Of a DNA stretch of 64,000 nucleotides, positions 5,154 through 56,905 are shown piece after piece; the stretch's first letter is position 1, and each line of letters opens with the position of its first letter. The translations under genes and the position numbers were made by a program. A model generated the notes under the pieces. It did not search any database and was not told where the DNA came from. It saw only the letters and a list, made by a program, of their open reading frames with translations. Source of the DNA: a virus; the IMG/VR virus record IMGVR_UViG_3300030329_003925, positions 13,220 through 77,219 of that record; one strand, 5' to 3'.

Positions 5154-5773
5154 TTTTTGACAAGCTCCTTATTAACTATGTCGTAGCCGTCAACAACGCC
5201 AATGTTAAAATAGTCGAAACCGTCCAGAAGTGCTATCTTTTGCTCGGCAAAGTCCCCCAGCATATTATATACGCTCACCTGCCCAACCACTTCTGTAAAC
5301 AAGGCTGGTGCTGCTGCTGGGGGTAAAGTCTTTAAGTGTGCATTGTAGGCTGCATACTCGCCCCTCAAGGTAAATTCTGTCCCCCTTGAGCCAATTGCTT
5401 GAATATGTGACATATAATCGTGGATGGCTCTAAACTTGGCATTCGTAACTTCGTCAAAGATGTCGTGATCAGCATCAATGGTGGCGATTCTCATCTTGCC
5501 GGTTGTATTTACTTCATCACGCAGTTCTTGTGCCGATTCATATGGGTGATAGTCTACGAACTCCACGTCCACTCTTGATTGAATCTGTTTAAACATCTTT
5601 TCGATAAAAGGAACCATAGCTTCGAAACTGGGAACAGCCCTTTGTTCAAATTTTGGAGCAGCCATATAAGCATCGGCAACAAGTTGAGCATACAAGTCCC
5701 AGCCGTTAGGACCGGGCTTGAGCATCAGCTTCTCGTTGAGGAAACCTCTCCAATTTTCAAAAAGGTTCTGCAC
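5150..5773 (-). CDS. Leader-bearing hypothetical protein
   Basis: MQNLFENWRGFLNE leader; FRAIHDYMSH motif. Confidence 0.6.
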   Translation of the reverse strand: MQNLFENWRGFLNEKLMLKPGPNGWDLYAQLVADAYMAAPKFEQRAVPSFEAMVPFIEKMFKQIQSRVDVEFVDYHPYESAQELRDEVNTTGKMRIATIDADHDIFDEVTNAKFRAIHDYMSHIQAIGSRGTEFTLRGEYAAYNAHLKTLPPAAAPALFTEVVGQVSVYNMLGDFAEQKIALLDGFDYFNIGVVDGYDIVNKELVKK

Positions 5774-8256: not shown

Positions 8257-9591
8257 TTACGGACACTCTCCATAGATGCCATAATCGACTTCTATAAGGC
8301 TGTCGGCAAGAGGAGCATAGTCAACATCGAAGTTTATAGAATTTGTGCTCGGATCATAATACCAGCCATCTGTCATCAGAAAGCCGTCGATGTAAACTTC
8401 GATGCTGTCAACGATAGGATCGTCCGACAACAGATACTGAAGAATAGGAACCAAGGAGTCCTCGGCTAATTGCTCAACTTGGTAGCCCCAATCCGAAGTG
8501 CAAATATCGAAGAATTGACCCGAAGATAGAAATACAGCCTCGTCATATCTCTCGGCAGGGTCAGCACAAGACGAAGAAGGATAAAGTCCAGCCACAGAGT
8601 GCAAGCTAAAAAGGGTGCCTGACGATTTGGTCGCCATCATGTCCGAGACATAATTGGTAACAGGGTCGAGAGAGAAATCATCCTCGTCTGAAACGATGAT
8701 GACCGCAAGATTTGCAGCCTCTCGGAAAAATACGCTCCCCAAGCCAGCAGTGCCCCCCGGCAACAAAGCGTCTCTTGCCATTTGCAGCCCTTTCTCGGTC
8801 GCGTTGCCACTTGTTCCAGCCACAATTGCATTTTGGAAGTCCAACAATAGGCTGGGGCTCGTAGGGGTCATTACGTTTCCGCGCAACATGGTGGAATCTG
8901 TTGTTATGACCCCGATATGGAAATCAGCCCCGCTTATCGAGAGGGGGTTAATGAAAAGATCAGCATTGCTTGCTAACTCGGTTTGTTCATCACTCATCGA
9001 ACAAGAGTTGTCGATGACAAAAAGAATATCCAGCATGACCTGCTCCTCTTGGATAAACTCGTCAGTAACATCTCCCCCACGAATGCCTTCTCCATCTTGC
9101 CCAATAATAACAGAGGGGTCAGTTAGGTCATTGGAATCCACGGTCACATAGCCCAAGTGATAATCTTCTTCGTTGGGCATATATTCCACGCTTATAAAAG
9201 CGGAGGCACCGGGAACCAAAATCCACGGCAACCCTCCGTAGGCGAGATAGTCCACATTCATAGCCAAATCGTCTGGACCACTGTAGTGAAGCTTGTCCAC
9301 AATTAGGTCGAGACCTCCGACACTCTTAATCTCGATCATTAGCTCCATGGGACACTCCAACAGAGTGTCTCCGAACTCGTGAAAAACAGGTGTCACCTCG
9401 ATTTCAGCCGTTAGCTCTGGTGGTTCTGGGTCCGTTTCGGTATTGACGATCAACGGCGGATCTCTGTCCGGTATCGTCGTTTCAACAACGGGTGGTGCAT
9501 CTGGTGCATCGACAACCAGATCCGAAATGTGATAGTCACTCTTGCAGGCTGTTAACAGCCCCAAAATAAAAAATAAATTCCCCCAACGCAT
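8257..9591 (-). CDS. Lipoprotein with Ig-like (ASH-type) domain and VWA domain (myxobacterial CglB-like architecture)
   Basis: Lipobox LTAC; MIDAS DILFVIDNSCSM, IGVITTD, IIVSDEDD. Confidence 0.75.
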   Translation of the reverse strand: MRWGNLFFILGLLTACKSDYHISDLVVDAPDAPPVVETTIPDRDPPLIVNTETDPEPPELTAEIEVTPVFHEFGDTLLECPMELMIEIKSVGGLDLIVDKLHYSGPDDLAMNVDYLAYGGLPWILVPGASAFISVEYMPNEEDYHLGYVTVDSNDLTDPSVIIGQDGEGIRGGDVTDEFIQEEQVMLDILFVIDNSCSMSDEQTELASNADLFINPLSISGADFHIGVITTDSTMLRGNVMTPTSPSLLLDFQNAIVAGTSGNATEKGLQMARDALLPGGTAGLGSVFFREAANLAVIIVSDEDDFSLDPVTNYVSDMMATKSSGTLFSLHSVAGLYPSSSCADPAERYDEAVFLSSGQFFDICTSDWGYQVEQLAEDSLVPILQYLLSDDPIVDSIEVYIDGFLMTDGWYYDPSTNSINFDVDYAPLADSLIEVDYGIYGECP

Positions 9592-9634: not shown

Positions 9635-10090
9635 CTACTTTTCTATTTCTCTTATTGTGCCGCAAACATTTATAGGCTCTATGGGTTCATAGTCGCTTAT
9701 TTGGAAGTCATTTGACTCCATACTTTTCGCTTCTACAAGGGGGTTTGTAGCTATCGTAATATGAGGGTGGTTGGGACCCCTCATCGGAAGTGCAACGCCT
9801 TCTAGGTCCACTAGAGCGCTTGCTACGCGGTCGTTTAAAGCGATACCCACAACTTTGACGCATAAACCAGTCCCAAGCCAGCGAGAAGGTAGCCTTCTCT
9901 TCATTTCTGGAGGGCTGATGATGGTCATGTGGTGTGCAATGGGCGTCCAGCCCTCTGGGGCATACGGAACCAAGGCTCGGTGACCCAAATCGTTGAGGAC
10001 AAGCCCTGTATACTCGATATGTTTAGCCATATCGGTCCCAAGGGAGATCTCGGACAGATGATCGCGCCAATTTTCAAGTAGGAGCTTCAT
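9635..10090 (-). CDS. 2H phosphoesterase with class A leader
   Basis: Two HxT motifs (HMTI, HITI); MKLLLENWRDHLSE leader. Confidence 0.75.
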   Translation of the reverse strand: MKLLLENWRDHLSEISLGTDMAKHIEYTGLVLNDLGHRALVPYAPEGWTPIAHHMTIISPPEMKRRLPSRWLGTGLCVKVVGIALNDRVASALVDLEGVALPMRGPNHPHITIATNPLVEAKSMESNDFQISDYEPIEPINVCGTIREIEK

Positions 10091-10476
10091 TCTACTCCTC
10101 CGAACATTCTCTTGAATATTTTGGGTGTATCTGGATTATCCAGATCTAAAATCTTTGCTTTTATCGTCTCAACCTTTTGGTTGATAGCCTTTTGTAGTCG
10201 ATGGTTGCCGTCTAAGACATACTTAAACTCGCCACCTTTTCTTACAACTATGATAGGAAACTCTAAACTTGCTGCTTTAACTCGCTCTTCACCGCGTGTT
10301 GGAAGAGGAGGTATCTGATTAGAAAGTTCTAAAACATTAAGATCAACTGTTTTATTACCCAAGAAGTCATCAATCTCACCGAGTGTGACCTTTTCTTCGT
10401 CGGTTTCCCACGATGTATCACGCCAACTTTTGTTTTCGTTGATAAACTTGTTCCAGTTTTCAAGTATGAGTTTCAT
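10087..10476 (-). CDS. ParB/Sulfiredoxin-like domain protein with class A leader
   Basis: PIIV...VLDGNHRL motif; MKLILENWNKFINE leader. Confidence 0.75.
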   Translation of the reverse strand: MKLILENWNKFINENKSWRDTSWETDEEKVTLGEIDDFLGNKTVDLNVLELSNQIPPLPTRGEERVKAASLEFPIIVVRKGGEFKYVLDGNHRLQKAINQKVETIKAKILDLDNPDTPKIFKRMFGGVE

Positions 10477-11672
10477 TGCCCAATAAATCCTACGATATCG
10501 TTATAAGTATTGTCCAGTTGTCGATTATGGATGGCAGCAAGAACTTTTCTGAAAGCATCACCTATCTGTTGTCCTCGGAATCCTAGTTCCATCATCTCTC
10601 TGCCGTTAATGTCGAGTTCCTTGGGAGAGAGAGGAAACTGTAATGCCTCTTCAATCTTGTCGGCTTGCTGAGTCATGCCAGCCTGCCGAAGAACACTAGC
10701 AATCAAGGGGAGTCTCCCTCGTTGTCCGCCCCCATACTCATAAACTTCTTTTGTATCCTCGGCTGCTTCCTGAGCAAGTTCAAGATATTGAACCATTTCG
10801 TTGGTGGGGCGCATCATATTGTGGTCGCCCCCTTCCAGAAAGAACGCAATGAAGTTGCCGAGTGTCTTGTCTTGGTTGTTGCCCCCGACCTCGATTGCGT
10901 AGGGATTAAAATCTTCTCCAAATATTGTTTTCCCGATTCCTGTCTCCTTCAAGAGCGAAACCAGTATATGGGCGTTGCCCGAGCCTTTCGTCCACGCCTT
11001 TGCAAGCTCCATAAACAGGCGTTCACCTGCAACCGACCCAATATCTCCCACATTTTTCTTGATGGCGTCTAAAGTTTCAGGCTCAATGGCGAAACCAAAG
11101 CGAGTGGCGAACTGAATAGCACGAAACATTCTCAAGGGATCTTCTTTAAATCTCTCATTAGGATCTCCCACGGTTCTGATAATTTTATTTTTTAAGTCTT
11201 CCTGTCCTCCGAACAAATCTATGATATTGCCTTCGGAGTCTTTGGCGAGAGCATTGATGGTAAAGTCTCTTCTGCCCAAATCAGACTCCACAGGAGCATT
11301 GGGATCTGTCTCCACATCAAACTCTGTGTGTTTCTCGCCCGTCTTTGTTTCGGAGGTTCTGGGAATGGCAAAGTCAAATTCCTCTCCATCAATTGTTGCA
11401 GTCACCACCCCAAATGCTTGCCCTACCTCTTTTACTTTTCCGAGAGGAGACAAAACAGAAACAATATCAGAGAGTGACAAGCCACGCACAAGGAAATCAA
11501 CATCTTTGGATGGGGGAGTGTCAGGCAGGAGTTCATCTCGCACTGCTCCTCCTACAATATAACTTTCACCACCGCCCTGCTCTAGTGCTGCTTCAATCTT
11601 TTCAATTGTAGCTGGATCGACTGCTTCATTGAGTTTCACAAACTCTCGCCAATTTTCAAGTAGGAGTTTCAT
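10473..11672 (-). CDS. cca: Class II tRNA nucleotidyltransferase (CCA-adding enzyme) with class A leader
   Basis: VGGAVRD, DVD, RRDFTINAL, RFKEDPLR motifs; flexible loop present; no HD domain; start reassigned to MKLLLENWREF. Confidence 0.88.
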   Translation of the reverse strand: MKLLLENWREFVKLNEAVDPATIEKIEAALEQGGGESYIVGGAVRDELLPDTPPSKDVDFLVRGLSLSDIVSVLSPLGKVKEVGQAFGVVTATIDGEEFDFAIPRTSETKTGEKHTEFDVETDPNAPVESDLGRRDFTINALAKDSEGNIIDLFGGQEDLKNKIIRTVGDPNERFKEDPLRMFRAIQFATRFGFAIEPETLDAIKKNVGDIGSVAGERLFMELAKAWTKGSGNAHILVSLLKETGIGKTIFGEDFNPYAIEVGGNNQDKTLGNFIAFFLEGGDHNMMRPTNEMVQYLELAQEAAEDTKEVYEYGGGQRGRLPLIASVLRQAGMTQQADKIEEALQFPLSPKELDINGREMMELGFRGQQIGDAFRKVLAAIHNRQLDNTYNDIVGFIGQ

Positions 11673-11711
11673 ATTCTTAATTAGTCTAGCCAGATGATAA
11701 GAGACGCAATA

Positions 11712-11742
11712 AAAAAAGGGCAGCGCGTTATGCACTGCCCTT
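11712..11742 (-). terminator. Rho-independent terminator
   Basis: AAGGGCAG(T/C)GC stem followed by a U-run on the minus strand. Confidence 0.7.
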
Positions 11743-11763
11743 CGTTGCCCCCGGTTAAGGAGC

Positions 11764-43136: not shown

Positions 43137-44684
43137 TTATTTTTGGACGATAGCAAAATTGGTGGTAACAAGGGTAGAAGCTGCCGATGCAGCGTTCTGG
43201 AGAGCGCATCTGGTTACTTTGAAGGGGTCTACAACGCCTTCTGCGAACATATCCGACATCTTACCCTTGGCAAAATCCCACCCCTTAGAACCGCTTGTTT
43301 TGCGGATTTTATCAACGACCACATCTGGGCTATCTCCGGCATTTTTAGCCATCTGGCGCACAGGCTCAAGGATAGCTTCCCGAACAATATGTGCTCCGTT
43401 TGTTTTCAGTTTGAGTTTCTGTGAGGCTCGGACCAAACTTACTCCTCCACCTGCCAAGATACCCTCCTGCTGGGCTGAACGAACTGCTTCCAGCGCATCT
43501 TCGATGCGATGACGCTTCTCAATCATTTCAACTTCCGTGGCTGCACCCACTCGGATAACTGCCACCCCGCTATTGAGGCGGCTAATACGGTCTTGGATAC
43601 GCTCACATTCATACATGGAGTCTGTTTGCACCAACTCAACCTGCAACGCCTCAATCTTCCGTGTTATATCGTCGGGATCTCCCTTCCCTCCAATTACTGT
43701 TGTTTCGCCCTTGATTGCGTCAATCTTGCGGCACAAGCCAAGATGCTCAAGTCGGGCATCTTTCAGGCGAACGCCCGTCTCGCGTGAAACAAAAGTGGCT
43801 CCCACTGACAATGCCAAGTCTTTAAGGATATTCTTTCTCTCCTCGCCATAGCGAGGTGCCTTGACAGCCGCAACCTTCATCGAACCTCGGATCGAATTCA
43901 TAATCAGAGCCGCAAGCCCTTGACCCTCAAACTCGGATCCAACAATTACAAATGGGCGAGCCTCTCTCGCAACCTGTTCTAAAACTGGCAAAATATCTTG
44001 GACATTTTCTATCTTCTCGTCGGTAACCATAATCAAAGGCTCGTCATATACCACAGCACCACGACGCTCGTTGTTCACAAACGATGAAGACACATATCCT
44101 CCCTCAAATCTAAACCCTTCCACCAAGTCTAGTGAAGTCTCGATGGATCGCGCCTCCTCAACCGTGATGGAACCATCCTTGCCTGCGCTGCTGATAGCCA
44201 GTGCTACCAATTTGCCAATCTTCTCGTCATTGTTGGCGGAGATGGTGGCGATATGACGAATATCGTCTTCGCTCTCGATGGGTCGTGCAAGCCCCTCTAA
44301 GTTTTCCACGACCTTTTCCACGGCTTCGTCGATTTCTCTTTTGAGGACCACTGGCGAACAGCCAACTTGGATATGGCTCTGAGCATTTTTATAAATTGCC
44401 CGCGCCAGCACAGTTGCGGTTGTTGTTCCATCGCCTGCCATTGAATTTGTTTGTGCGGCAGCTTGCTTGATAATCTGAACCCCCACATCCTCAAATGGAT
44501 TCTCCAAATCAATGAAGTTGGCGACGGTCACGCCGTCCTTGGTGATCACCGGAGAACCCTCAGTCCCCTTCAGAATCACGTTGCGACCCCGTGGACCCAA
44601 TGTAGATGCCACGTTGTCTGCCAGCACGTCAATGCCAGCCAAAATCTTCTGGCGTAACGCCATTCCCGAATCATAATGCTTCAC
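43137..44684 (-). CDS. groEL: Chaperonin GroEL
   Basis: TLGPRGRNV, ITKDGVTVA, AGDGTTTATVLA, GVAVIRVGA. Confidence 0.96.
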   Translation of the reverse strand: MKHYDSGMALRQKILAGIDVLADNVASTLGPRGRNVILKGTEGSPVITKDGVTVANFIDLENPFEDVGVQIIKQAAAQTNSMAGDGTTTATVLARAIYKNAQSHIQVGCSPVVLKREIDEAVEKVVENLEGLARPIESEDDIRHIATISANNDEKIGKLVALAISSAGKDGSITVEEARSIETSLDLVEGFRFEGGYVSSSFVNNERRGAVVYDEPLIMVTDEKIENVQDILPVLEQVAREARPFVIVGSEFEGQGLAALIMNSIRGSMKVAAVKAPRYGEERKNILKDLALSVGATFVSRETGVRLKDARLEHLGLCRKIDAIKGETTVIGGKGDPDDITRKIEALQVELVQTDSMYECERIQDRISRLNSGVAVIRVGAATEVEMIEKRHRIEDALEAVRSAQQEGILAGGGVSLVRASQKLKLKTNGAHIVREAILEPVRQMAKNAGDSPDVVVDKIRKTSGSKGWDFAKGKMSDMFAEGVVDPFKVTRCALQNAASAASTLVTTNFAIVQK

Positions 44685-45605: not shown

Positions 45606-46748
45606 TCACATAATCTTGGAAATGATTTTCTCTAAGTCTTCTCGATTTCGCAAATTGAGAGGGCTTTTCTCCAGCCTCCCCTTAATCTTGATAGCCACGT
45701 TAAACGAAGTTGCACTGTTTGTGCCCATCGAAGGCTTTAACCGAAGTCGGACGAGTGACTGAAGACCGCTCTCCGAAAACAATGGGATGCCAAACTCTTT
45801 TGCGTCGGCAGCGTTGAGAGCATAAAGACCCCAATTGCCAAGCTGAATAAACCTGTCTCCCTTGTCGGCGTAATAGTTAGAAATCATCTCAAATGGGAAC
45901 TCTATCTTCTTGTCCGTCTTGCCCCCAAACCATTCGGCTTCCAACTGACGCTTGAATTCTCCGGTGGTGGGCGAGCGCTTCAAGCCTGTTATGACTTGCC
46001 CTACCACGTTTTCCCTATCTGCACTCATGAGATTACGCATCTGGAACCTCTCATCGTAAGGCTCTGACATCACATAACTCTTTTGCACATAGTCGTCAAC
46101 GTAGTTCTCATAGATGGGCATGAAGACCTTCATGTTTTCTAAGAACTTGGACGTAGTAGAAGGCTCCCATCTTCCGTCGCCCGTATCATAGCGAAGCCGA
46201 AACTGCCCAAAGTCGGCAGAGATGCCGGTCTTTACTTCGATAGTTAGTTCACCGTTAGGTCCAGAAAGAGTCAAATCCGAACCATGCCCAGAGCCAGCAC
46301 TCTCCGCACTGATCGCTTTACCAGCGATTTCTTGTGCCATTTTTACAAATTTCTCTTCCTCGTGCGCTCCAACATCTGCCGCCCTCTCGCCAAACGGGGG
46401 CTTAAAAAGAATATACACCGAACCCTCTTGGCGATCAATCCGCTGAAGCCTTCCTAAAGTGGAGCCGTCATCGCGATGCTCGTAGCCCAATGGTGCAAGC
46501 ATTTGTGTCATCTTGTCCATGACGTTGACGCGCTCGGGCGAACGAATTCTTATAACATTGTAGCGAGGCAGGTCATAGTGGTATCCCTCTCTCTCGACAA
46601 TATCAAGTGCCTTCTGAAGTTCTACGCCAGTATCGCGCACGAATACTTCGGATAACTCCCCCTCTACCATTTCAAACAAAAGGGAGCTAACATCCTTCTT
46701 GGGTGCAGGCTCATAGTATTCTTTTACCAGTTGCTCAAATGATTTCAT
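45606..46748 (-). CDS. PD-(D/E)xK nuclease-like protein with a leader-like N-terminus
   Basis: G..EE...SDL...IEVKT; LLFEMVE leader-like segment. Confidence 0.55.
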   Translation of the reverse strand: MKSFEQLVKEYYEPAPKKDVSSLLFEMVEGELSEVFVRDTGVELQKALDIVEREGYHYDLPRYNVIRIRSPERVNVMDKMTQMLAPLGYEHRDDGSTLGRLQRIDRQEGSVYILFKPPFGERAADVGAHEEEKFVKMAQEIAGKAISAESAGSGHGSDLTLSGPNGELTIEVKTGISADFGQFRLRYDTGDGRWEPSTTSKFLENMKVFMPIYENYVDDYVQKSYVMSEPYDERFQMRNLMSADRENVVGQVITGLKRSPTTGEFKRQLEAEWFGGKTDKKIEFPFEMISNYYADKGDRFIQLGNWGLYALNAADAKEFGIPLFSESGLQSLVRLRLKPSMGTNSATSFNVAIKIKGRLEKSPLNLRNREDLEKIISKIM

Positions 46749-47403
46749 CGACGATTCCCAATTCCAATGCCTCTTCTGCCGACAGATAAACATTGACGTT
46801 CTTGTTAATTAGTCTCTTAATTTGCTTTTCGGTCATATTGGTTTCGGCTGCGAGGATCTCGATGTACTGTTTCTGGATCTTCTCGACCTCTTTCATTTCG
46901 TTCTGCATCTGTGCCAAAGCGCCAATGGTCCCAGCCGAAACATTATGAAGCATAACCCTGCAATACTTTCCAATTCGCCGCTTACCCTTGGTGCCAGCCG
47001 CCAATAGTGGTACACCAGCCGACATGACCTTTCCAATGCCCATAGTCTCAATGTCACAGTCTTTGCGTAAAAAGCGCATCATATCATAGATGGCGAACAT
47101 CTCTCTGGCATCGCCACCATTAGTTGAGATAATCATCTCAAATGGCTGAGACACCTTTTCTGTTTCGCCGTCTGAATTCTCTGTATCCTTAGCCTTATCC
47201 TTAAAGCGTGTATCGTGAAGAGCCAGCATACCATAAATTATGTCGCTGGTGTTCTCTTCGGCAATATCTCCAATCACGCCAATCTTACGGAGAGGCTCCT
47301 TGTCGGCAGGATCTCCCAACAGATCGGTAAGCAAAAGTAAAGGATTGCCGCTCTCCTCTGTCTCTTCTTCTTCAGTTTTCTCAGCGACCTCAGTATTTGA
47401 CAT
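46735..47403 (-). CDS. clpP: ClpP-family protease proteolytic subunit
   Basis: ISTNGG, GKVMSAG, MLH, YLSAEEALELGIVD. Confidence 0.88.
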   Translation of the reverse strand: MSNTEVAEKTEEEETEESGNPLLLLTDLLGDPADKEPLRKIGVIGDIAEENTSDIIYGMLALHDTRFKDKAKDTENSDGETEKVSQPFEMIISTNGGDAREMFAIYDMMRFLRKDCDIETMGIGKVMSAGVPLLAAGTKGKRRIGKYCRVMLHNVSAGTIGALAQMQNEMKEVEKIQKQYIEILAAETNMTEKQIKRLINKNVNVYLSAEEALELGIVDEII

Positions 47404-53244: not shown

Positions 53245-53471
53245 ACACTCCTCCCATCAGTACACACTATCCACGCTCCACCATTAACCCATCGTTCTTT
53301 GTGGGCACTTAGTCCATGCTTCGATGACATCTCCTTAACGGTGTCGATGTTGTATCGAGAATGTCCTGTAATGATTTTAACCGGCAGATTGTCAAAATTG
53401 TCTGTCAAAAATTTTTCCACTCTGAACAATATATCATATCTTTCCACTTTGTGCAAGTCTAAAGTTTTCAT
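53241..53471 (-). CDS. Standalone Smr domain protein
   Basis: LDLH, KIITG, NGGA. Confidence 0.7.
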   Translation of the reverse strand: MKTLDLHKVERYDILFRVEKFLTDNFDNLPVKIITGHSRYNIDTVKEMSSKHGLSAHKERWVNGGAWIVCTDGRSV

Positions 53472-56400
53472 CCAAGCACTCTAAAATTGCTCCGAAGAGA
53501 TCGTGTGCTAAAGCCCCACTGATCACTGTAGTCTAAACGTGCCATGTAAGGGCGGTTAAGAGCTATATTATCTTTGTTTGGGTCAATTCCCCAACAACGA
53601 ATACTGGTAGCGGCGTTGTTTTCGTCTGTGACTTCCAAGATCCAATAGTCTTTGCCAGTGCGCGTCTTCTTGGAAATACACTTGCGTGGGATAAACCACG
53701 TCACCATCAAATCGGGATCAAACATGCTGATAGGCGGAACACACATCTTATCCAGTCGTCCTCGGATGTCCTCGTTCATCACTCGCTCCAAGGGAAATTC
53801 TCCAGTCAAGTCAATGATAAACTGAATCTCGTCTTCTTCGCTGAATTCTCCCTCTGGAGAATAAGTCTTGATGTTCTCTTCAAGGTTTTTCAGCTTGCGT
53901 GGGCGATCCACCGCAACGGCTGACCAGAAGTGCTTGCCTCCCGTAAACCTCTCGTCCTTGAGGGGATCAAGCGCACCACTCCGCACAAGTACATCGAGAG
54001 CCCTTTTGTTCAACTTGGAATAGACAATGTTCTCGTTGAACAAGAACTCTTCTATATTTACAAATGGTCGGTTGTCGAGCACCTGCTTAATTGCCGCCTC
54101 TCCCAATCCCTTGATAGCGGTCAACGGCTGGATAAGCGTCTTTCCGTCGTCTGAAATCTCCCAGACCTTTCCAGATGTATTCACATTCAACTTGGCAATC
54201 TCAAAGCCATACTTCTTGGCAATCGTGATAGCTTTCGCTTTGCGAGTCTCTGGCTCCTTGTCCAAGAACGCTGCCATCCAGCACTCAGGATAATAATTTA
54301 GAAGCCACGCACATTGGAATGAAATCATCGAGTATGAGATTGCATGAGACTTGTTGAAACCATAGCCAGAGAAGAATTCAAACTTCTCCCACAATGCGTT
54401 AGCTTGTCGTGCGGTCATCCCCTTCTCAACGCACCCATCCACAAACTTGGTGTATAGAGCCTTCTTGACCTTGGCAGTCTTTCCGGTGCCCTTCTTCGTC
54501 AGCACCTTACGAAGCATGTTGCCCTCGTCCAAAGATAAATCTTTGCCAAGACGGTGAGCCAGTGCAGAAATCTGCTCCTGAAAAATTAGAAATCCGTATG
54601 TCTCTTCTGTGACCTCGCGGTAGTCTTCGTTGGGATACCGGATGTATTGCGGGTTTTCCTTCGCCTCGACATAATCCCTGTCCACCTTAGCCGACAGCGG
54701 TCCCGGTCGGAAGATGCTCGTAACAGCAGCAATATCAATGATGCTGGTTGGCTTTGCGACCATGCACAAGTTCTGCGCCCCATCCTCTGTGAACTGGAAT
54801 ACACCAGCCCACTTACCTTTCTGAAAGATGTTCTCATAGACATTCTGGTCTGTCAGGTCGATCTTGTCGGGGTGCAGGTTCTCGTCATAGAACTTTCTCA
54901 CCTCTTCGAACGAGGGGTCTTCGTTCCCCTGCCTACGCAAAATATGACGGACAGCCCCCTCAATCATTCGAAGTGTCGAGAGTCCCAACAGGTCAAACTT
55001 AATGAAGCCCATTGGCTCCAAGTGCCTGACGTTCTGTCCCTCGCTCCACGGAGTCTGCCGAACACCGCCACTGTTGATGAGGGGCATGTACTGGTCAAGG
55101 TTCTCAGCAATCACCACTCCCCCTGCATGACGCGAACATGAACGCACCTGACCATGCAGAGCCTCAACGTGAGTCTTGACGTGAGGATACTTCTGCAAGA
55201 AGCCATTCAAGCTCGGGCTGTACTCCATCACCTCTTCGAATGTGGGGATATACATCCCAGCCTTAATCCCGTGAGCCTTCTTAGCAGGTCCAGTTGCCTC
55301 ACTAATCATAGCTCCGGTGACCTTATTGACTTCCATGAAAGGAATGTTGTAAAACTTAGAAATGTCTTTGATGAGACTGCGAAGCTGCAATGTGTTCCAG
55401 TTAGAGATGGGCACGACTGTATCGTCTCCCCACTCCTCAATCAAAGCCTCCTTCAGTTTCATAGGCTCAGCTACATCGTAATCGATGTCAGGGTAGTCGG
55501 TTGCGTCTGCTCGGAGGAACCTTGCGAACTGAAGTCCGTACTTCAGAGGATCAATCTGAGTAATACCAAGCACATACGCCACCAGTGAACCAGCGGCTGA
55601 ACCACGTCCCGGTCCTGTCAACATCAGCTTGTTGGCTCGGTCCACGATTGCCTTCATGGTTAGAAAGTATTTTGAGAACCCTCGGTCATCAATCGTGTAG
55701 AGTTCGCTCTTGAGCCTCTCGATGTATTCATCATTGGTGTGTAAGCCCAGTGTGCGAAGCGCATCAATGCTAAGGCGTGCCAAAGCCTGTGTTGCTGTAG
55801 CCCCCTCGGGGACCACAAAGTCGGGAAGGCGCACCTCGTTGTCTGGCATGAAGTCTTCGATGCGTTCAAACGCAATCTTGTAAGTCTCTGTCAGCGAATC
55901 CATCACAAGGTCATCATCGTATTCAACCCCTTGCAATTTGCTGTACCGATGATACGACTCCCACATCTGCTCGCCATTCTTCGGATAGAGTTCGCACTTC
56001 AGGTCTTCAGGTTCTGGAAGCTCCTCTGAAAGATATTCAGGTCGCTTTCCAAGCCATCCAAGCCTCTTATAAAGTTCCCTGTCCTTCCAAGCGTCGGGAC
56101 CGGGATAGTGGCTATCAGCCGTAGAGATCAGCTTGATACCGAACTCTTTATGCATCTGGATAATGTATTGGTTGAGTTCGTGCTGCTCGGGGATGTTGTT
56201 CCATTGTAGCTCTCCGTACCACCTATCGTCAAAAATCTCCACCATGCGGCGAGTAGCCTCCCTCATGGCTTCTAATGCCGCCTCTTTGTCTGTACCAGTT
56301 CTCTCGCCTTCCTCGTTGTAGATGCCACTCTCCCACATACAGCCAGCATAAACGCCACCCAAACAAGCAGATGCAGCCATCACACCTTCGGAATAGCGCG

Positions 56401-56905
56401 AAAGCAAATCATAATCCACGCGAGGGTAACGATAATAATTATCGTCGGTGTAGCTCTCAGAGACAATCTTAAACAGATTGTTCAGACCAGTCTGATTCTG
56501 ATCGAGCAAGATAAGATGACGACGACGGTTGAGCATATTCTTTACCGCTTTCTTGGAGGCTTCCTCGTCCTCCACTGTAGCCCCAGACGCCGCCTTCTTC
56601 TTGAGTTTCTGCTCCGCTTTCACGCGGTCATACTCCTCTCTCCATTCTTTGGTCGAGGGAATAAAGTACGCCTCGATCCCAAAGATAGGTTTAAATTCTT
56701 TTCCCTCAGCCTGCATCTTCTTGGCGTGCAAGACCTGATGAGCAAGCCCGTTCATATTGCCGTGGTCAGTCAGAGCCAAAGCCTTAGACCCATTCGCATA
56801 GGCATAGTCCATATGCTGCTGTGGATAACCAATTGCATCAAAAATAGAACCTGCAACGCTATGTGCGTGCAAGCCAACAAACGGTATTTGTTCATCATTC
56901 ATCAT
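53468..56905 (-). CDS. dnaE: DNA polymerase III alpha subunit (family C) with PHP domain
   Basis: LHAHS, LTDHG, GRGSAAGSL, PDIDYD, HAGGVV, KFDLLGL, YGFNKSH. Confidence 0.97.
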   Translation of the reverse strand: MMNDEQIPFVGLHAHSVAGSIFDAIGYPQQHMDYAYANGSKALALTDHGNMNGLAHQVLHAKKMQAEGKEFKPIFGIEAYFIPSTKEWREEYDRVKAEQKLKKKAASGATVEDEEASKKAVKNMLNRRRHLILLDQNQTGLNNLFKIVSESYTDDNYYRYPRVDYDLLSRYSEGVMAASACLGGVYAGCMWESGIYNEEGERTGTDKEAALEAMREATRRMVEIFDDRWYGELQWNNIPEQHELNQYIIQMHKEFGIKLISTADSHYPGPDAWKDRELYKRLGWLGKRPEYLSEELPEPEDLKCELYPKNGEQMWESYHRYSKLQGVEYDDDLVMDSLTETYKIAFERIEDFMPDNEVRLPDFVVPEGATATQALARLSIDALRTLGLHTNDEYIERLKSELYTIDDRGFSKYFLTMKAIVDRANKLMLTGPGRGSAAGSLVAYVLGITQIDPLKYGLQFARFLRADATDYPDIDYDVAEPMKLKEALIEEWGDDTVVPISNWNTLQLRSLIKDISKFYNIPFMEVNKVTGAMISEATGPAKKAHGIKAGMYIPTFEEVMEYSPSLNGFLQKYPHVKTHVEALHGQVRSCSRHAGGVVIAENLDQYMPLINSGGVRQTPWSEGQNVRHLEPMGFIKFDLLGLSTLRMIEGAVRHILRRQGNEDPSFEEVRKFYDENLHPDKIDLTDQNVYENIFQKGKWAGVFQFTEDGAQNLCMVAKPTSIIDIAAVTSIFRPGPLSAKVDRDYVEAKENPQYIRYPNEDYREVTEETYGFLIFQEQISALAHRLGKDLSLDEGNMLRKVLTKKGTGKTAKVKKALYTKFVDGCVEKGMTARQANALWEKFEFFSGYGFNKSHAISYSMISFQCAWLLNYYPECWMAAFLDKEPETRKAKAITIAKKYGFEIAKLNVNTSGKVWEISDDGKTLIQPLTAIKGLGEAAIKQVLDNRPFVNIEEFLFNENIVYSKLNKRALDVLVRSGALDPLKDERFTGGKHFWSAVAVDRPRKLKNLEENIKTYSPEGEFSEEDEIQFIIDLTGEFPLERVMNEDIRGRLDKMCVPPISMFDPDLMVTWFIPRKCISKKTRTGKDYWILEVTDENNAATSIRCWGIDPNKDNIALNRPYMARLDYSDQWGFSTRSLRSNFRVLG

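What the first reader, a model, noticed from the sequence alone, without database searches (positions are those of the whole stretch)
9635..11672. Leader-tagged RNA-end repair operon: CCA-adding enzyme, ParB/Srx-like protein and 2H phosphoesterase
Seen in sequence: three translationally coupled genes (ATGA overlaps), each with a class A leader. Established: 2H enzymes open 2',3'-cyclic phosphates (some, like T4 Acb1, degrade CBASS cyclic nucleotides), and CCA enzymes rebuild tRNA 3' ends damaged by toxins. Inference: a pre-packaged kit that heals and rebuilds tRNA ends, or destroys immune second messengers, before phage gene expression begins.
Basis: partly seen in the sequence, partly recalled or inferred. 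Interest (0 to 1): 0.72.

Follow-up and report, generated by a model that had tools for sequence, protein, structure and literature searches.

The report
Tagged tRNA-end repair genes in phage
An uncultured marine phage carries three overlapping genes (a tRNA CCA-adding enzyme, a small ParB/sulfiredoxin-fold protein and a CNPase-like cyclic phosphodiesterase), each starting with a short tag that looks like phage T4's capsid-targeting signal, so the phage may inject ready-made RNA-repair enzymes along with its DNA.

Summary
There are three minus-strand genes: 10473-11672, 10087-10476 and 9635-10090. They are joined by two ATGA overlaps, and each begins MKL(L/I)LENW.

All three identities are confirmed:
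- The first is a class II CCA-adding enzyme.
- The second is a minimal ParB/Srx-fold domain.
- The third is a 2H phosphoesterase. Its model matches mouse CNPase (Z 12.8) far better than Acb1 (Z 7.1).

This 2H family lies within 5 kb of a CCA-enzyme gene in 24 of 31 viral loci. In eight distinct loci it is fused to the CCA domain in one giant protein. Elsewhere it is often fused to a T4 Pnkp-like kinase. This supports RNA-end healing over destruction of cyclic-nucleotide signals.

The trio itself is not fixed. The closest relatives lack the ParB-like gene or the CCA gene at this locus.

Packaging is inferred, not shown. The evidence:
- The tag is strictly N-terminal and is swappable between tag classes.
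- It ends in (L/I)-x-E, the T4 gp21 cleavage motif.
- All eight tag-bearing relatives tested encode a gp21-type protease.
- The second tag class heads a gene next to that protease.

The window's own record is a fragment without head genes.

Verdict: a new variant of known kinds (phage RNA repair plus T4-style cargo tagging). It is interesting and needs virion proteomics. The scan's other notes on this same genome describe the tags; no look-alike was found on other DNA.

The parts
11715..11743 (-). Terminator-like hairpin (12-bp stem plus T run) that ends the upstream membrane-protein gene and sets the 5' limit of the operon
   Evidence: sequence
11678..11685 (-). ACTAATTA, a one-base variant of the strand-specific ACTATTTA promoter-like motif, 5 nt before the first ATG. 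It may be chance.
   Evidence: ACTA[AT]TTA occurs 18 times on the coding strand and 0 on the other in the record, and 33 against 4 in the relative G001, where it precedes structural genes
10473..11672 (-). Class II CCA-adding enzyme (tRNA nucleotidyltransferase), 399 aa
   Evidence: Pfam PolyA_pol 1.9e-22 and PolyA_pol_RNAbd 2e-9. PHROG 2244 2e-61. PDB CCA-adding enzymes 6ibp 1.1e-35 and 1miv 5.5e-34, with GGAVRD, DVD, RRDFTINA and EDPLR aligned. Best NCBIfam model is CCA tRNA nucleotidyltransferase, but below its cut-off.
11625..11672 (-). Class A tag of the CCA enzyme, residues 1-16, ending L-N-E
10087..10476 (-). Minimal ParB/sulfiredoxin-fold protein, 129 aa, with an invariant D-G-N-H-R motif and no HTH domain
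   Evidence: PHROG 17560 3.3e-12. AF2 model pLDDT 75. Foldseek: sulfiredoxin 6ky4 E 7e-4, Noc/ParB N-domains, serine kinases SerK and SbnI. 461 or more clusters in marine metagenomes; alignment A2.
10435..10476 (-). Class A tag of the ParB/Srx-like protein, residues 1-14, ending I-N-E. It is disordered relative to the domain in the model.
9635..10090 (-). 2H phosphoesterase of the CNPase/Trl1-CPD type, 151 aa, with two H-x-T motifs (H54-M-T56 and H110-I-T112)
   Evidence: alignment A1. AF2 model pLDDT 84. VIA-align: mouse CNPase Z 12.8, rmsd 2.2 over 128 residues; next best Acb1 Z 7.1. Foldseek: CNPase, Trl1 kinase-CPD 6u05, giant-virus Trl1-like ligases. Weak Pfam tRNA_lig_CPD.
10049..10090 (-). 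Class A tag of the 2H protein, residues 1-14, ending L-S-E
   Evidence: L12 and E14 are nearly invariant, and one homologue (P0012) carries a class B tag on the same core
10473..10476 (-). ATGA stop/start overlap between the CCA enzyme and the ParB/Srx-like gene
10087..10090 (-). ATGA stop/start overlap between the ParB/Srx-like gene and the 2H gene

Best explanation
This is a small operon of RNA 3'-end processing enzymes in a roughly 180-200 kb uncultured marine phage with T4-type head genes. Shown: the three products are a class II CCA-adding enzyme, a stand-alone ParB/Srx-fold domain (a nucleotide-binding fold in its solved relatives) and a CNPase/Trl1-type 2H cyclic phosphodiesterase. Also shown: the CCA and 2H families are linked or fused in many phages. 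Inferred mechanism: the 2H enzyme opens the 2',3'-cyclic phosphate left on tRNA by metal-independent ribonucleases. By analogy with CNPase and Trl1-CPD this gives a 2'-phosphate and a free 3'-OH. The CCA enzyme then rebuilds the acceptor end, and it also matures the phage's own tRNAs that lack an encoded CCA. The ParB/Srx protein is an NTP-dependent helper of unknown reaction, perhaps an NTPase or a phosphotransferase. Each protein carries a 14-16 residue amphipathic N-terminal propeptide ending in (L/I)-x-E. This most likely works like the T4 capsid-targeting sequence. It would load the protein into the prohead core, be cut off by the gp21-type protease, and so let the mature enzyme enter the cell with the DNA. 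The locus is a cassette array in which tagged genes come and go, so the trio is one combination, not a fixed system.
For: Identities.
CCA-2H link:
- An HMM of the 2H family hits 24 of 31 viral loci recovered with the CCA enzyme.
- In L021, L022, L024, L025, L026/27, L032-34, L036 and L038/40 it is the C-terminal domain of the same 1000-2600 aa ORF that holds the CCA domain.
- In L013-16 (CCA 64% identical) a tagged 2H and a tagged CCA gene are ATGA-coupled in the opposite order.
End-healing context:
- A 303-aa protein in L004 joins a T4 Pnkp-like kinase (1ly1, E 0.002) to this 2H.
- A full profile search finds 3039 relatives. They include many kinase-2H proteins of about 300 aa and many C-terminal domains of giant proteins.
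- A Pnkp-phosphatase-like HAD protein follows in the huge-phage loci.
tRNA need: tRNA-Met and tRNA-Leu lack an encoded CCA.
Tag:
- It is strictly N-terminal with synonymous codon variation.
- Class A and class B tags swap on one 2H core.
- Phi-x-E sits at residues 12-14 in 122 of 152 tagged ORFs from 80 further viral loci.
- The window's record shares 41 ORFs with the complete relative G001, whose DNA polymerase is 68.6% identical.
- G001, G004, G005 and five further complete tag-bearing genomes all encode a Peptidase_S77 protease. The G001 protease is 32% identical to T4 gp21.
- The G001 capsid protein has L-R-E|A aligned with the T4 gp23 L-T-E|A site.
- A class B-tagged gene lies directly after the protease in L061/L062.
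- In L013-16 the tagged array lies just upstream of the terminase-portal-protease block.
Literature: T4 internal proteins share only a 10-residue targeting sequence and are cut after L/I-x-E (PMC9026906, PMC3012670). Jumbo phages carry 2H and CCA enzymes for RNA repair (PMC7824862). 2H and ParB domains recur in proteins predicted to be packaged (PMC5512222).
Against: - No virion data exist. The window's own record is about 43% complete and holds no head genes.
- Here the operon lies among replication and metabolic genes, not head genes.
- The trio is not conserved. L002 (2H 84% identical) has other tagged genes in place of CCA and ParB. G001 has the 2H but neither CCA nor the small ParB.
- Of 152 tagged ORFs elsewhere, six are ParB-like, one is 2H and none is CCA.
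- A CNPase-type product keeps a 2'-phosphate. Whether a CCA enzyme accepts such an end is unknown, and no phosphatase sits in the operon.
- Resemblance of the tag to the T4 sequence MKTYQEFIAE is only M-K, E6, an aromatic residue and a final Phi-x-E.
Confidence: 0.5

Rival explanations
1. The enzymes are ordinary cytoplasmic phage proteins and the tag is not a capsid address. It could be a shared helix for assembly into a cytoplasmic complex, or a degron for the phage's own ClpP-like protease. It could also be a conserved translation-start context that doubles as a recombination site for cassette exchange.
For: No head genes or proteomics exist for this record. The operon lies in a non-structural region, and a ClpP-like gene and GroEL are nearby. 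About a fifth of the window's genes are tagged, which is many for capsid cargo. The cassette-like gain and loss of tagged genes fits a recombination role.
Against: Synonymous codons vary freely while the peptide is kept, which argues against a purely nucleotide-level role. The fixed Phi-x-E, the universal S77 protease in tag-bearing genomes and a class B-tagged gene at the scaffold position are all as expected for a T4-like propeptide.
Confidence: 0.25
2. The three genes have no joint function. The CCA enzyme only matures phage tRNAs that lack an encoded CCA. The ParB/Srx and 2H proteins are unrelated cargo that lie next to it because the locus shuffles cassettes.
For: tRNA-Met and tRNA-Leu lack an encoded CCA. 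The closest relatives have different neighbours. The ParB-like protein is far more widespread (461 or more clusters) than this close, similar-length branch of the 2H family (17 clusters).
Against: The CCA-2H linkage recurs in three separate arrangements, including fusions in one polypeptide. A DGHHR protein, probably also ParB/Srx-like, lies 1-3 genes downstream in 19 of 31 CCA loci. That relation is weak, however (hhalign probability 28%, E 6e-4). A cultured-phage homologue of the ParB-like protein sits inside a tRNA gene cluster.
Confidence: 0.15
3. The 2H protein is an Acb1-like counter-defence nuclease that destroys cyclic-nucleotide immune signals (CBASS and the like), delivered early.
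For: It has the same superfamily, size (about 135 aa core) and phage setting as Acb1. Acb1 structures and models do match (7t27 Z 7.1; BFVD Acb1 entries E 5e-4 to 1e-2).
Against: CNPase matches far better (Z 12.8, rmsd 2.2 over 128 residues). The top viral matches are Trl1-like RNA ligases. The family is fused to Pnkp-like kinases and to CCA enzymes. There is no significant sequence match to T4 57B (E 0.13).
Confidence: 0.1

Closest known systems
T4 internal proteins (IPI, IPII, IPIII) with their capsid-targeting sequence, processed by the gp21 prohead protease
   Same: A short N-terminal peptide is shared by otherwise unrelated proteins. It ends in (L/I)-x-E. The genes lie in variable cassette loci, and a gp21-type protease is present in related genomes (PMC9026906, PMC3012670).
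   Different: The tag is 14-16 residues, not 10, and only loosely similar in sequence. There are two tag classes. About 18 tagged genes occur in 64 kb, and many are enzymes. The phage has a DnaE-type polymerase and is not a T-even phage. Packaging is untested.
Fungal/plant tRNA ligase Trl1 kinase-CPD module and mammalian CNPase
   Same: The 2H fold is closest to CNPase (Z 12.8). There are two H-x-T motifs. Relatives fuse a P-loop polynucleotide kinase N-terminal to the 2H domain, as in CNPase and Trl1.
   Different: Here the 2H domain stands alone at about 135 residues, smaller than CNPase's 215. It falls below the Pfam tRNA_lig_CPD cut-off. Its partner is a CCA-adding enzyme rather than a ligase.
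Jumbo-phage RNA repair gene sets (Iyer et al. 2021, PMC7824862) and T4 Pnkp/Rnl1
   Same: These are phage-encoded 2H phosphoesterases, CCA-adding enzymes, kinases and phosphatases alongside phage tRNAs, proposed to reverse host attacks on tRNA.
   Different: In what I read of that paper the components are listed separately. The tight CCA-2H operon or fusion, the ParB/Srx partner and the N-terminal tags are not described there.
Polyvalent proteins of phages (Iyer et al. 2017, PMC5512222)
   Same: 2H and ParB/Srx domains recur in proteins predicted to be packaged and injected. The 1000-2600 aa CCA-2H proteins of L021-L040 look like this class.
   Different: In the window the domains are separate small tagged proteins, not one giant polypeptide.
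Anti-CBASS protein Acb1 (T4 gene 57B)
   Same: A small phage 2H phosphoesterase.
   Different: The structural match is much weaker than to CNPase, there is no sequence match, and the fusion partners differ.

Membership tests
Class II CCA-adding enzyme (Pol beta superfamily tRNA nucleotidyltransferase) | Head-domain motifs: GGxVRD with DxD carboxylates (A), RRD (B) and EDxxR (D) | tested here: met
   GGAVRD, DVD, RRDFTINA and EDPLR align with Planococcus and Geobacillus CCA enzymes. Pfam PolyA_pol 1.9e-22.
Class II CCA-adding enzyme (Pol beta superfamily tRNA nucleotidyltransferase) | Neck/body/tail region that binds tRNA | tested here: met
   PolyA_pol_RNAbd 2e-9, above its cut-off. tRNA_NucTran2_2 2.2e-4, below its cut-off.
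Class II CCA-adding enzyme (Pol beta superfamily tRNA nucleotidyltransferase) | Scores above an NCBIfam equivalog cut-off | tested here: not met
   Best model NF009814 scores 172.9 bits against a cut-off of 290. This is a divergent phage branch (PHROG 2244 2e-61).
Class II CCA-adding enzyme (Pol beta superfamily tRNA nucleotidyltransferase) | Adds C, C, A (not only A, and not a poly(A) tail) to tRNA | not testable with these tools
   CCA enzymes score higher than poly(A) polymerases and A-adding enzymes, but only an assay can settle specificity.
2H phosphoesterase superfamily, CNPase/Trl1-CPD branch | Two H-x-T/S motifs | tested here: met
   H54-M-T56 and H110-I-T112 are invariant across 16 sequences.
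2H phosphoesterase superfamily, CNPase/Trl1-CPD branch | 2H fold, closest to CNPase/CPD structures | tested here: met
   2xmi Z 12.8, rmsd 2.2, 128 aligned; the other 2H families score Z 7.1 or less. Foldseek: CNPase E 4e-4 and 6u05.
2H phosphoesterase superfamily, CNPase/Trl1-CPD branch | Passes the Pfam tRNA_lig_CPD (PF08302) gathering score | tested here: not met
   14.4 bits against 23. Two homologues carry a precomputed PF08302 hit.
2H phosphoesterase superfamily, CNPase/Trl1-CPD branch | Association with a P-loop polynucleotide kinase | tested here: met
   Met in relatives only: L004 kinase-2H (1ly1, E 0.002) and many proteins of about 300 aa covering both parts. It is absent from the window protein.
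2H phosphoesterase superfamily, CNPase/Trl1-CPD branch | Hydrolyses 2',3'-cyclic phosphate to 2'-phosphate | not testable with these tools
   Inference from the fold only.
Acb1 anti-CBASS nucleases | Specific sequence or structural kinship with Acb1 | tested here: inconclusive
   7t27 Z 7.1, well below CNPase. BLASTP against T4 57B gives E 0.13. The shared superfamily fold cannot exclude the activity.
ParB/sulfiredoxin superfamily | ParB/Srx alpha-beta fold | tested here: met
   Foldseek: sulfiredoxin 6ky4 E 7e-4, Noc and ParB N-domains E about 1e-3, SerK and SbnI.
ParB/sulfiredoxin superfamily | Conserved G-x-x-R (D-G-x-H-R) nucleotide-site motif | tested here: met
   D89 G90 N91 H92 R93 are invariant in 15 sequences.
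ParB partition/CTPase proteins proper | HTH DNA-binding and C-terminal dimerisation domains | tested here: not met
   The protein is 129 aa, and the domain fills residues about 30-129. It is therefore not a partition ParB.
Sulfiredoxin proper | Catalytic Cys in the G-C-H-R motif | tested here: not met
   By motif comparison Asn91 sits where Srx has its catalytic Cys (the Srx G-C-H-R motif is from my own knowledge, not aligned here).
T4-type capsid-targeting propeptide | Short N-terminal peptide shared by unrelated proteins | tested here: met
T4-type capsid-targeting propeptide | Ends at an (L/I)-x-E site for a gp21-type protease | tested here: met
   LNE, INE and LSE in the three genes. 122 of 152 tagged ORFs elsewhere have the site.
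T4-type capsid-targeting propeptide | The genome encodes a gp21-type (Peptidase_S77) prohead protease | tested here: inconclusive
   Absent from the 77-kb fragment. Present in 8 of 8 related tag-bearing records tested.
T4-type capsid-targeting propeptide | Processed protein present in virions and ejected | not testable with these tools
   Only indirect evidence: a ParB-like homologue in phage PA5oct is annotated as a structural protein by ESI-MS/MS.

The most novel reading that the evidence does not exclude
A widespread group of marine phages uses two interchangeable T4-like address tags to load dozens of different enzymes into the capsid. In this phage the load includes a ready-made tRNA acceptor-end repair kit: a CNPase-type cyclic phosphodiesterase, a ParB/Srx-fold NTP-dependent helper with a new RNA-end function, and a CCA-adding enzyme. 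The kit would enter with the DNA and neutralise tRNA-cleaving abortive-infection nucleases before any phage gene is expressed.
Probability: 0.3. Interest if true: 0.8.

Novelty: new variant of a known kind. Interest (0 to 1): 0.62.

Why it matters
Phage RNA repair and T4 capsid-targeted cargo are each known, but they have not been joined. If the tags do load these enzymes into virions, tRNA repair becomes an injected, pre-emptive counter-defence rather than an expressed one. The tag itself would then be a simple marker for finding the injected protein sets of uncultured phages from sequence alone. Separately, the recurrent CCA-2H fusion predicts a direct biochemical hand-off between cyclic-phosphate opening and CCA rebuilding. 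It also gives the abundant small ParB/Srx protein a testable RNA-related role.

Tried and rejected
- The complex prediction of the G001 prohead protease with the tagged N-terminus of the 2H protein gave no verdict, so it says nothing either way.
The neighbourhoods of the many ParB-like homologues on long contigs could not be read.
- tblastn with 22-residue class A and class B tags against 50,697 phage records found no cultured phage with either tag. There were only chance Microviridae hits at E of 0.5 or more.
- The profile of the long DGHHR protein family (A3) found no solved relative. The Atlas gave only weak leads, ART-PolyVal 0.82 and ParB_N 0.77.
- The small and long ParB-like families align only weakly (hhalign probability 28%), so I do not claim they are the same family.
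- Pfam gave no support at E below 0.01 for the tagged Tpt1-like and HAD proteins proposed elsewhere in the window. It also gave none for an RNA ligase in the 1156-aa upstream protein.
- PADLOC and NCBIfam gave nothing for the two small proteins.
- T4's late-promoter octamer TATAAATA is not used here.
- HMMER aligned the tag with the end of the T4 Pnkp kinase domain. I treat this as coincidence.
- The Burroughs and Aravind 2016 RNA-repair survey is not held in the library. I could not check whether the CCA-2H link is described there.
Full report
**Where the window lies.**
The window is bases 13220-77219 of a 77-kb IMG/VR virus record estimated at 43% complete. All genes run on the minus strand. 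The window encodes tRNA-Lys, tRNA-Met and tRNA-Leu. The record also holds two more tRNAs and a tmRNA. Other genes include a DnaE-type DNA polymerase, a ribonucleotide reductase, GroEL and a ClpP-like protein. There are no head genes.

**The observation.**
The three ORFs lie at 10473-11672, 10087-10476 and 9635-10090. They overlap by ATGA at both junctions, and each starts MKL(L/I)LENW. A strong terminator-like hairpin at 11743-11715 sits just upstream. It rules out the longer GTG start, so the unit needs its own promoter.

**The CCA-adding enzyme.**
- The 399-aa protein has the class II head-domain motifs: GGAVRD with DVD, RRDFTINA and EDPLR.
- It aligns best with bacterial CCA-adding enzymes (6ibp 1.1e-35, 1miv 5.5e-34), ahead of poly(A) polymerases and A-adding enzymes.
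- It belongs to the phage tRNA nucleotidyltransferase family PHROG 2244 (2e-61).
- It falls below the NCBIfam equivalog cut-offs, so it is a divergent member.
- Two of the three tRNA genes in the window (Met and Leu) do not encode CCA. A plain maturation role therefore exists as well.

**The 2H protein.**
- Seventeen marine metagenome homologues align over the full length, with two invariant H-x-T motifs.
- The AlphaFold model (pLDDT 84) matches the mouse CNPase catalytic domain at Z 12.8 (rmsd 2.2 over 128 residues). Acb1 scores 7.1, and LigT-like, Usb1, VP3 and ns2 enzymes score 5-6.4.
- Foldseek agrees, and adds the Candida Trl1 kinase-CPD structure and giant-virus Trl1-like ligases.
- In a 362-kb phage (L004) the same domain is fused behind a kinase that matches T4 Pnkp.
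- A full profile search of 1.8 billion representatives finds 3039 relatives. Three architectures recur: stand-alone proteins, kinase-2H proteins of about 300 aa, and the C-terminus of proteins of 1000-2400 aa.
- This places the protein in the end-healing CNPase/Trl1-CPD branch, not with Acb1. There is no sequence match to T4 57B.

**The ParB/Srx-like protein.**
- The model (pLDDT 75, with the first 27 residues disordered) matches sulfiredoxin, the CTP-binding N-domains of ParB and Noc, and the ParB-fold serine kinases SerK and SbnI.
- The D-G-N-H-R motif is invariant.
- It has no HTH domain and no Srx cysteine, so it is neither a partition protein nor a sulfiredoxin. It is a bare domain of a fold that binds nucleotides in its solved relatives.
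- It is very common in marine metagenomes: 461 or more clusters at 68-96% identity. All 15 sequences aligned carry the tag.
- Among cultured phages, a 110-aa homologue in Erwinia phage Parshik lies inside a tRNA gene cluster.
- The homologous domain in Pseudomonas phage PA5oct is annotated as a structural protein by mass spectrometry.

**Is the trio a unit?**
Loci recovered with the CCA enzyme were scanned with HMMs.
- The 2H family is present in 24 of 31 loci.
- In L021, L022, L024, L025, L026/27, L032-34, L036 and L038/40 it is the C-terminal domain of the same giant ORF that contains the CCA domain. Pfam on one of these shows PolyA_pol, then its RNA-binding domain, then tRNA_lig_CPD.
- In the remaining loci with a hit it is a nearby separate gene.
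- In the huge-phage loci it is followed by a HAD protein resembling the Pnkp phosphatase (PHROG 415; weak HAD_SAK_1). In 19 of the 31 loci there is also a protein of about 275 aa with a DGHHR motif.
- The relation of that DGHHR protein to the window's ParB-like protein is only weakly supported.
- In L013-16, whose CCA enzyme is 64% identical, a tagged 2H and a tagged CCA gene are ATGA-coupled in the reverse order, with no ParB gene.

The closest relatives show that the locus is a cassette array.
- L002 (2H 84% identical) keeps the flanking genes but has two other tagged genes where CCA and ParB lie here.
- The complete relative G001 has the 2H next to a kinase-like protein and a Pol-beta NTase. 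It has no CCA enzyme and no small ParB.

So CCA and 2H are functionally linked across phages. The three-gene set as such is one variable combination.

**The tag.**
- The class A core occurs almost only at protein starts, and the codons vary synonymously.
- Eighteen genes in the window carry class A or class B tags, and none of the recognisable replication genes does.
- The same 2H core carries class A in most homologues, class B in P0012 and a third variant in P0017. All end in L-x-E.
- A degenerate DNA pattern for the tag hits at least 120 viral contigs.
- Of 152 tagged ORFs in 80 of these loci, 122 have Phi-x-E at residues 12-14.

The record is a close relative of the complete 205-kb genome G001: 41 shared ORFs, with the polymerase 68.6% identical.
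- G001 has a T4-type capsid protein and a Peptidase_S77 protease 32% identical to T4 gp21.
- Its capsid protein has L-R-E|A aligned with L-T-E|A of T4 gp23. From my own knowledge, that is the gp23 maturation cut after Glu65.
- All eight tag-bearing records tested encode this protease.
- Their proteases begin K-x-L-L-R-E-Y-Y, which loosely echoes the class A core and the L-L-I-E-T-W near the start of T4 gp21.
- In L061/L062 the gene directly after the protease, at the scaffold position, starts with a perfect class B tag.
- In L013-16 the tagged array with 2H and CCA lies directly upstream of the terminase-portal-protease block.

T4 literature states three relevant points. Internal proteins share only a 10-residue targeting sequence. 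gp21 cuts after L/I-x-E. Foreign proteins given that sequence are packaged and injected (PMC9026906, PMC3012670). The T4 sequence MKTYQEFIAE shares M-K, E6, an aromatic residue and the final Phi-x-E with class A. Together this makes a capsid-targeting propeptide the best reading of the tag, at about 55-60%, but nothing here shows packaging.

**Mechanism, with steps marked.**
- Shown: the enzyme identities, the operon structure, the CCA-2H linkage and fusion, the kinase-2H fusion, and the tag anatomy.
- Inferred: the 2H protein opens 2',3'-cyclic phosphate ends to a 2'-phosphate and 3'-OH, as CNPase and Trl1-CPD do.
- Inferred: the CCA enzyme rebuilds damaged acceptor ends and completes phage tRNAs.
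- Inferred: the ParB/Srx protein supplies an NTP-dependent step.
- Inferred: the tags load all three into the prohead and are removed by the protease.
- Open: who removes the 2'-phosphate, and whether the CCA enzyme tolerates it.

**Comparison and novelty.**
Phage RNA repair with 2H and CCA enzymes is described for jumbo phages (PMC7824862). 2H and ParB domains are known parts of proteins predicted to be injected (PMC5512222). T4-style targeting of varied cargo is classical. New here are three things. Repair enzymes carry such a tag. A CNPase-type 2H is tightly paired with a CCA enzyme, even fused to it. A small ParB/Srx protein sits in that context. No paper in the library links capsid targeting to marine T4-like phages. 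I rate this a new variant of known kinds.

The scan's other notes on this same genome describe the two tag families and a wider 'repair kit'. I confirmed the tags. I could not confirm the Tpt1 and HAD members by Pfam. No look-alike was noted on other DNA.

Noticed in passing
window, e.g. 14456, 36757, 39006, 40475, 3415, 17595, 7945; G001 (L044-L054): The octamer ACTATTTA (with variant ACTAATTA) is strictly strand-specific: 18 on the coding strand against 0 in the record, and 33 against 4 in G001. It usually lies 10-25 nt before a start codon. In G001 it precedes structural genes, and in the window it precedes several tagged genes but also the DNA polymerase gene. It is probably the phage's own promoter element, and it is not T4's TATAAATA.
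   Followed up: partly
L061:2026-2466 (+) and L062:964-1404 (-): In the phage carrying the 64%-identical tagged CCA enzyme, the gene directly after the prohead protease starts with a perfect class B tag (MKITEKQLNQIIQEE). This ties that tag class to the head-assembly module.
   Followed up: partly
L005:1438-2055, L061:1402-2013, L186-L190: The S77 prohead proteases of tag-bearing phages all begin K-x-L-L-(R/K)-E-(Y/F)-(Y/F)-E-L. This loosely resembles the class A core K-L-L-L-E-N-W and the L-L-I-E-T-W near the start of T4 gp21.
   Followed up: partly
L021, L025, L026, L032, L036, L040 (ORFs of 1700-2600 aa): Giant proteins of huge phages (contigs up to 363 kb) start with a protein-kinase-like glycine loop, carry the CCA enzyme about 1100 residues in, and end in the 2H domain. 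They look like polyvalent proteins. The first ~1100 residues have no Pfam match.
   Followed up: partly
L026:8059-8874 and homologues (alignment A3): A conserved protein of about 275 aa has a DGHHR motif near its N-terminus and a conserved G-Y-D-G-I-K-Y-G end. It lies 1-3 genes after the CCA-2H module in 19 loci. The Atlas hints at ART-PolyVal and ParB_N, but neither is confirmed.
   Followed up: partly
window 8257-9591 (-) and L002:6499-7815: A lipoprotein with a VWA domain (weak Pfam hit, signal ending LLTAC) follows the 2H gene both here and in the closest relative, so the downstream flank of the cassette array is conserved.
   Followed up: no
window 53468-56905 (-): The replicative polymerase is DnaE-like (Pol III alpha, about 30% identical to Bacillus phage enzymes) in a phage lineage with T4-type capsid and protease genes. 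This is an unusual mix.
   Followed up: no
T4 record NC_000866, 65416-74410 (L059): In T4 itself the internal-protein genes ipII, ipIII and ipI flank the tRNA gene cluster, and ipI lies next to the 2H gene 57B (Acb1). This is a loose parallel to the tagged-gene, tRNA and 2H neighbourhood seen here.
   Followed up: no
L003:6001-6453: The G001 copy of the 2H gene starts with GTG (V-K-L-L-L-E-N-W), and the window gene at 5773 also starts with GTG. ATG-only ORF calling misses some tagged genes.
   Followed up: yes
window 46735-47403 and 43137-44684 (-): A ClpP-like protease (Pfam 7e-32) and a GroEL homologue (PHROG 1.6e-144) lie about 2 kb apart, with two genes between them. Whether the ClpP-like protein acts on tagged proteins is unknown.
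   Followed up: no
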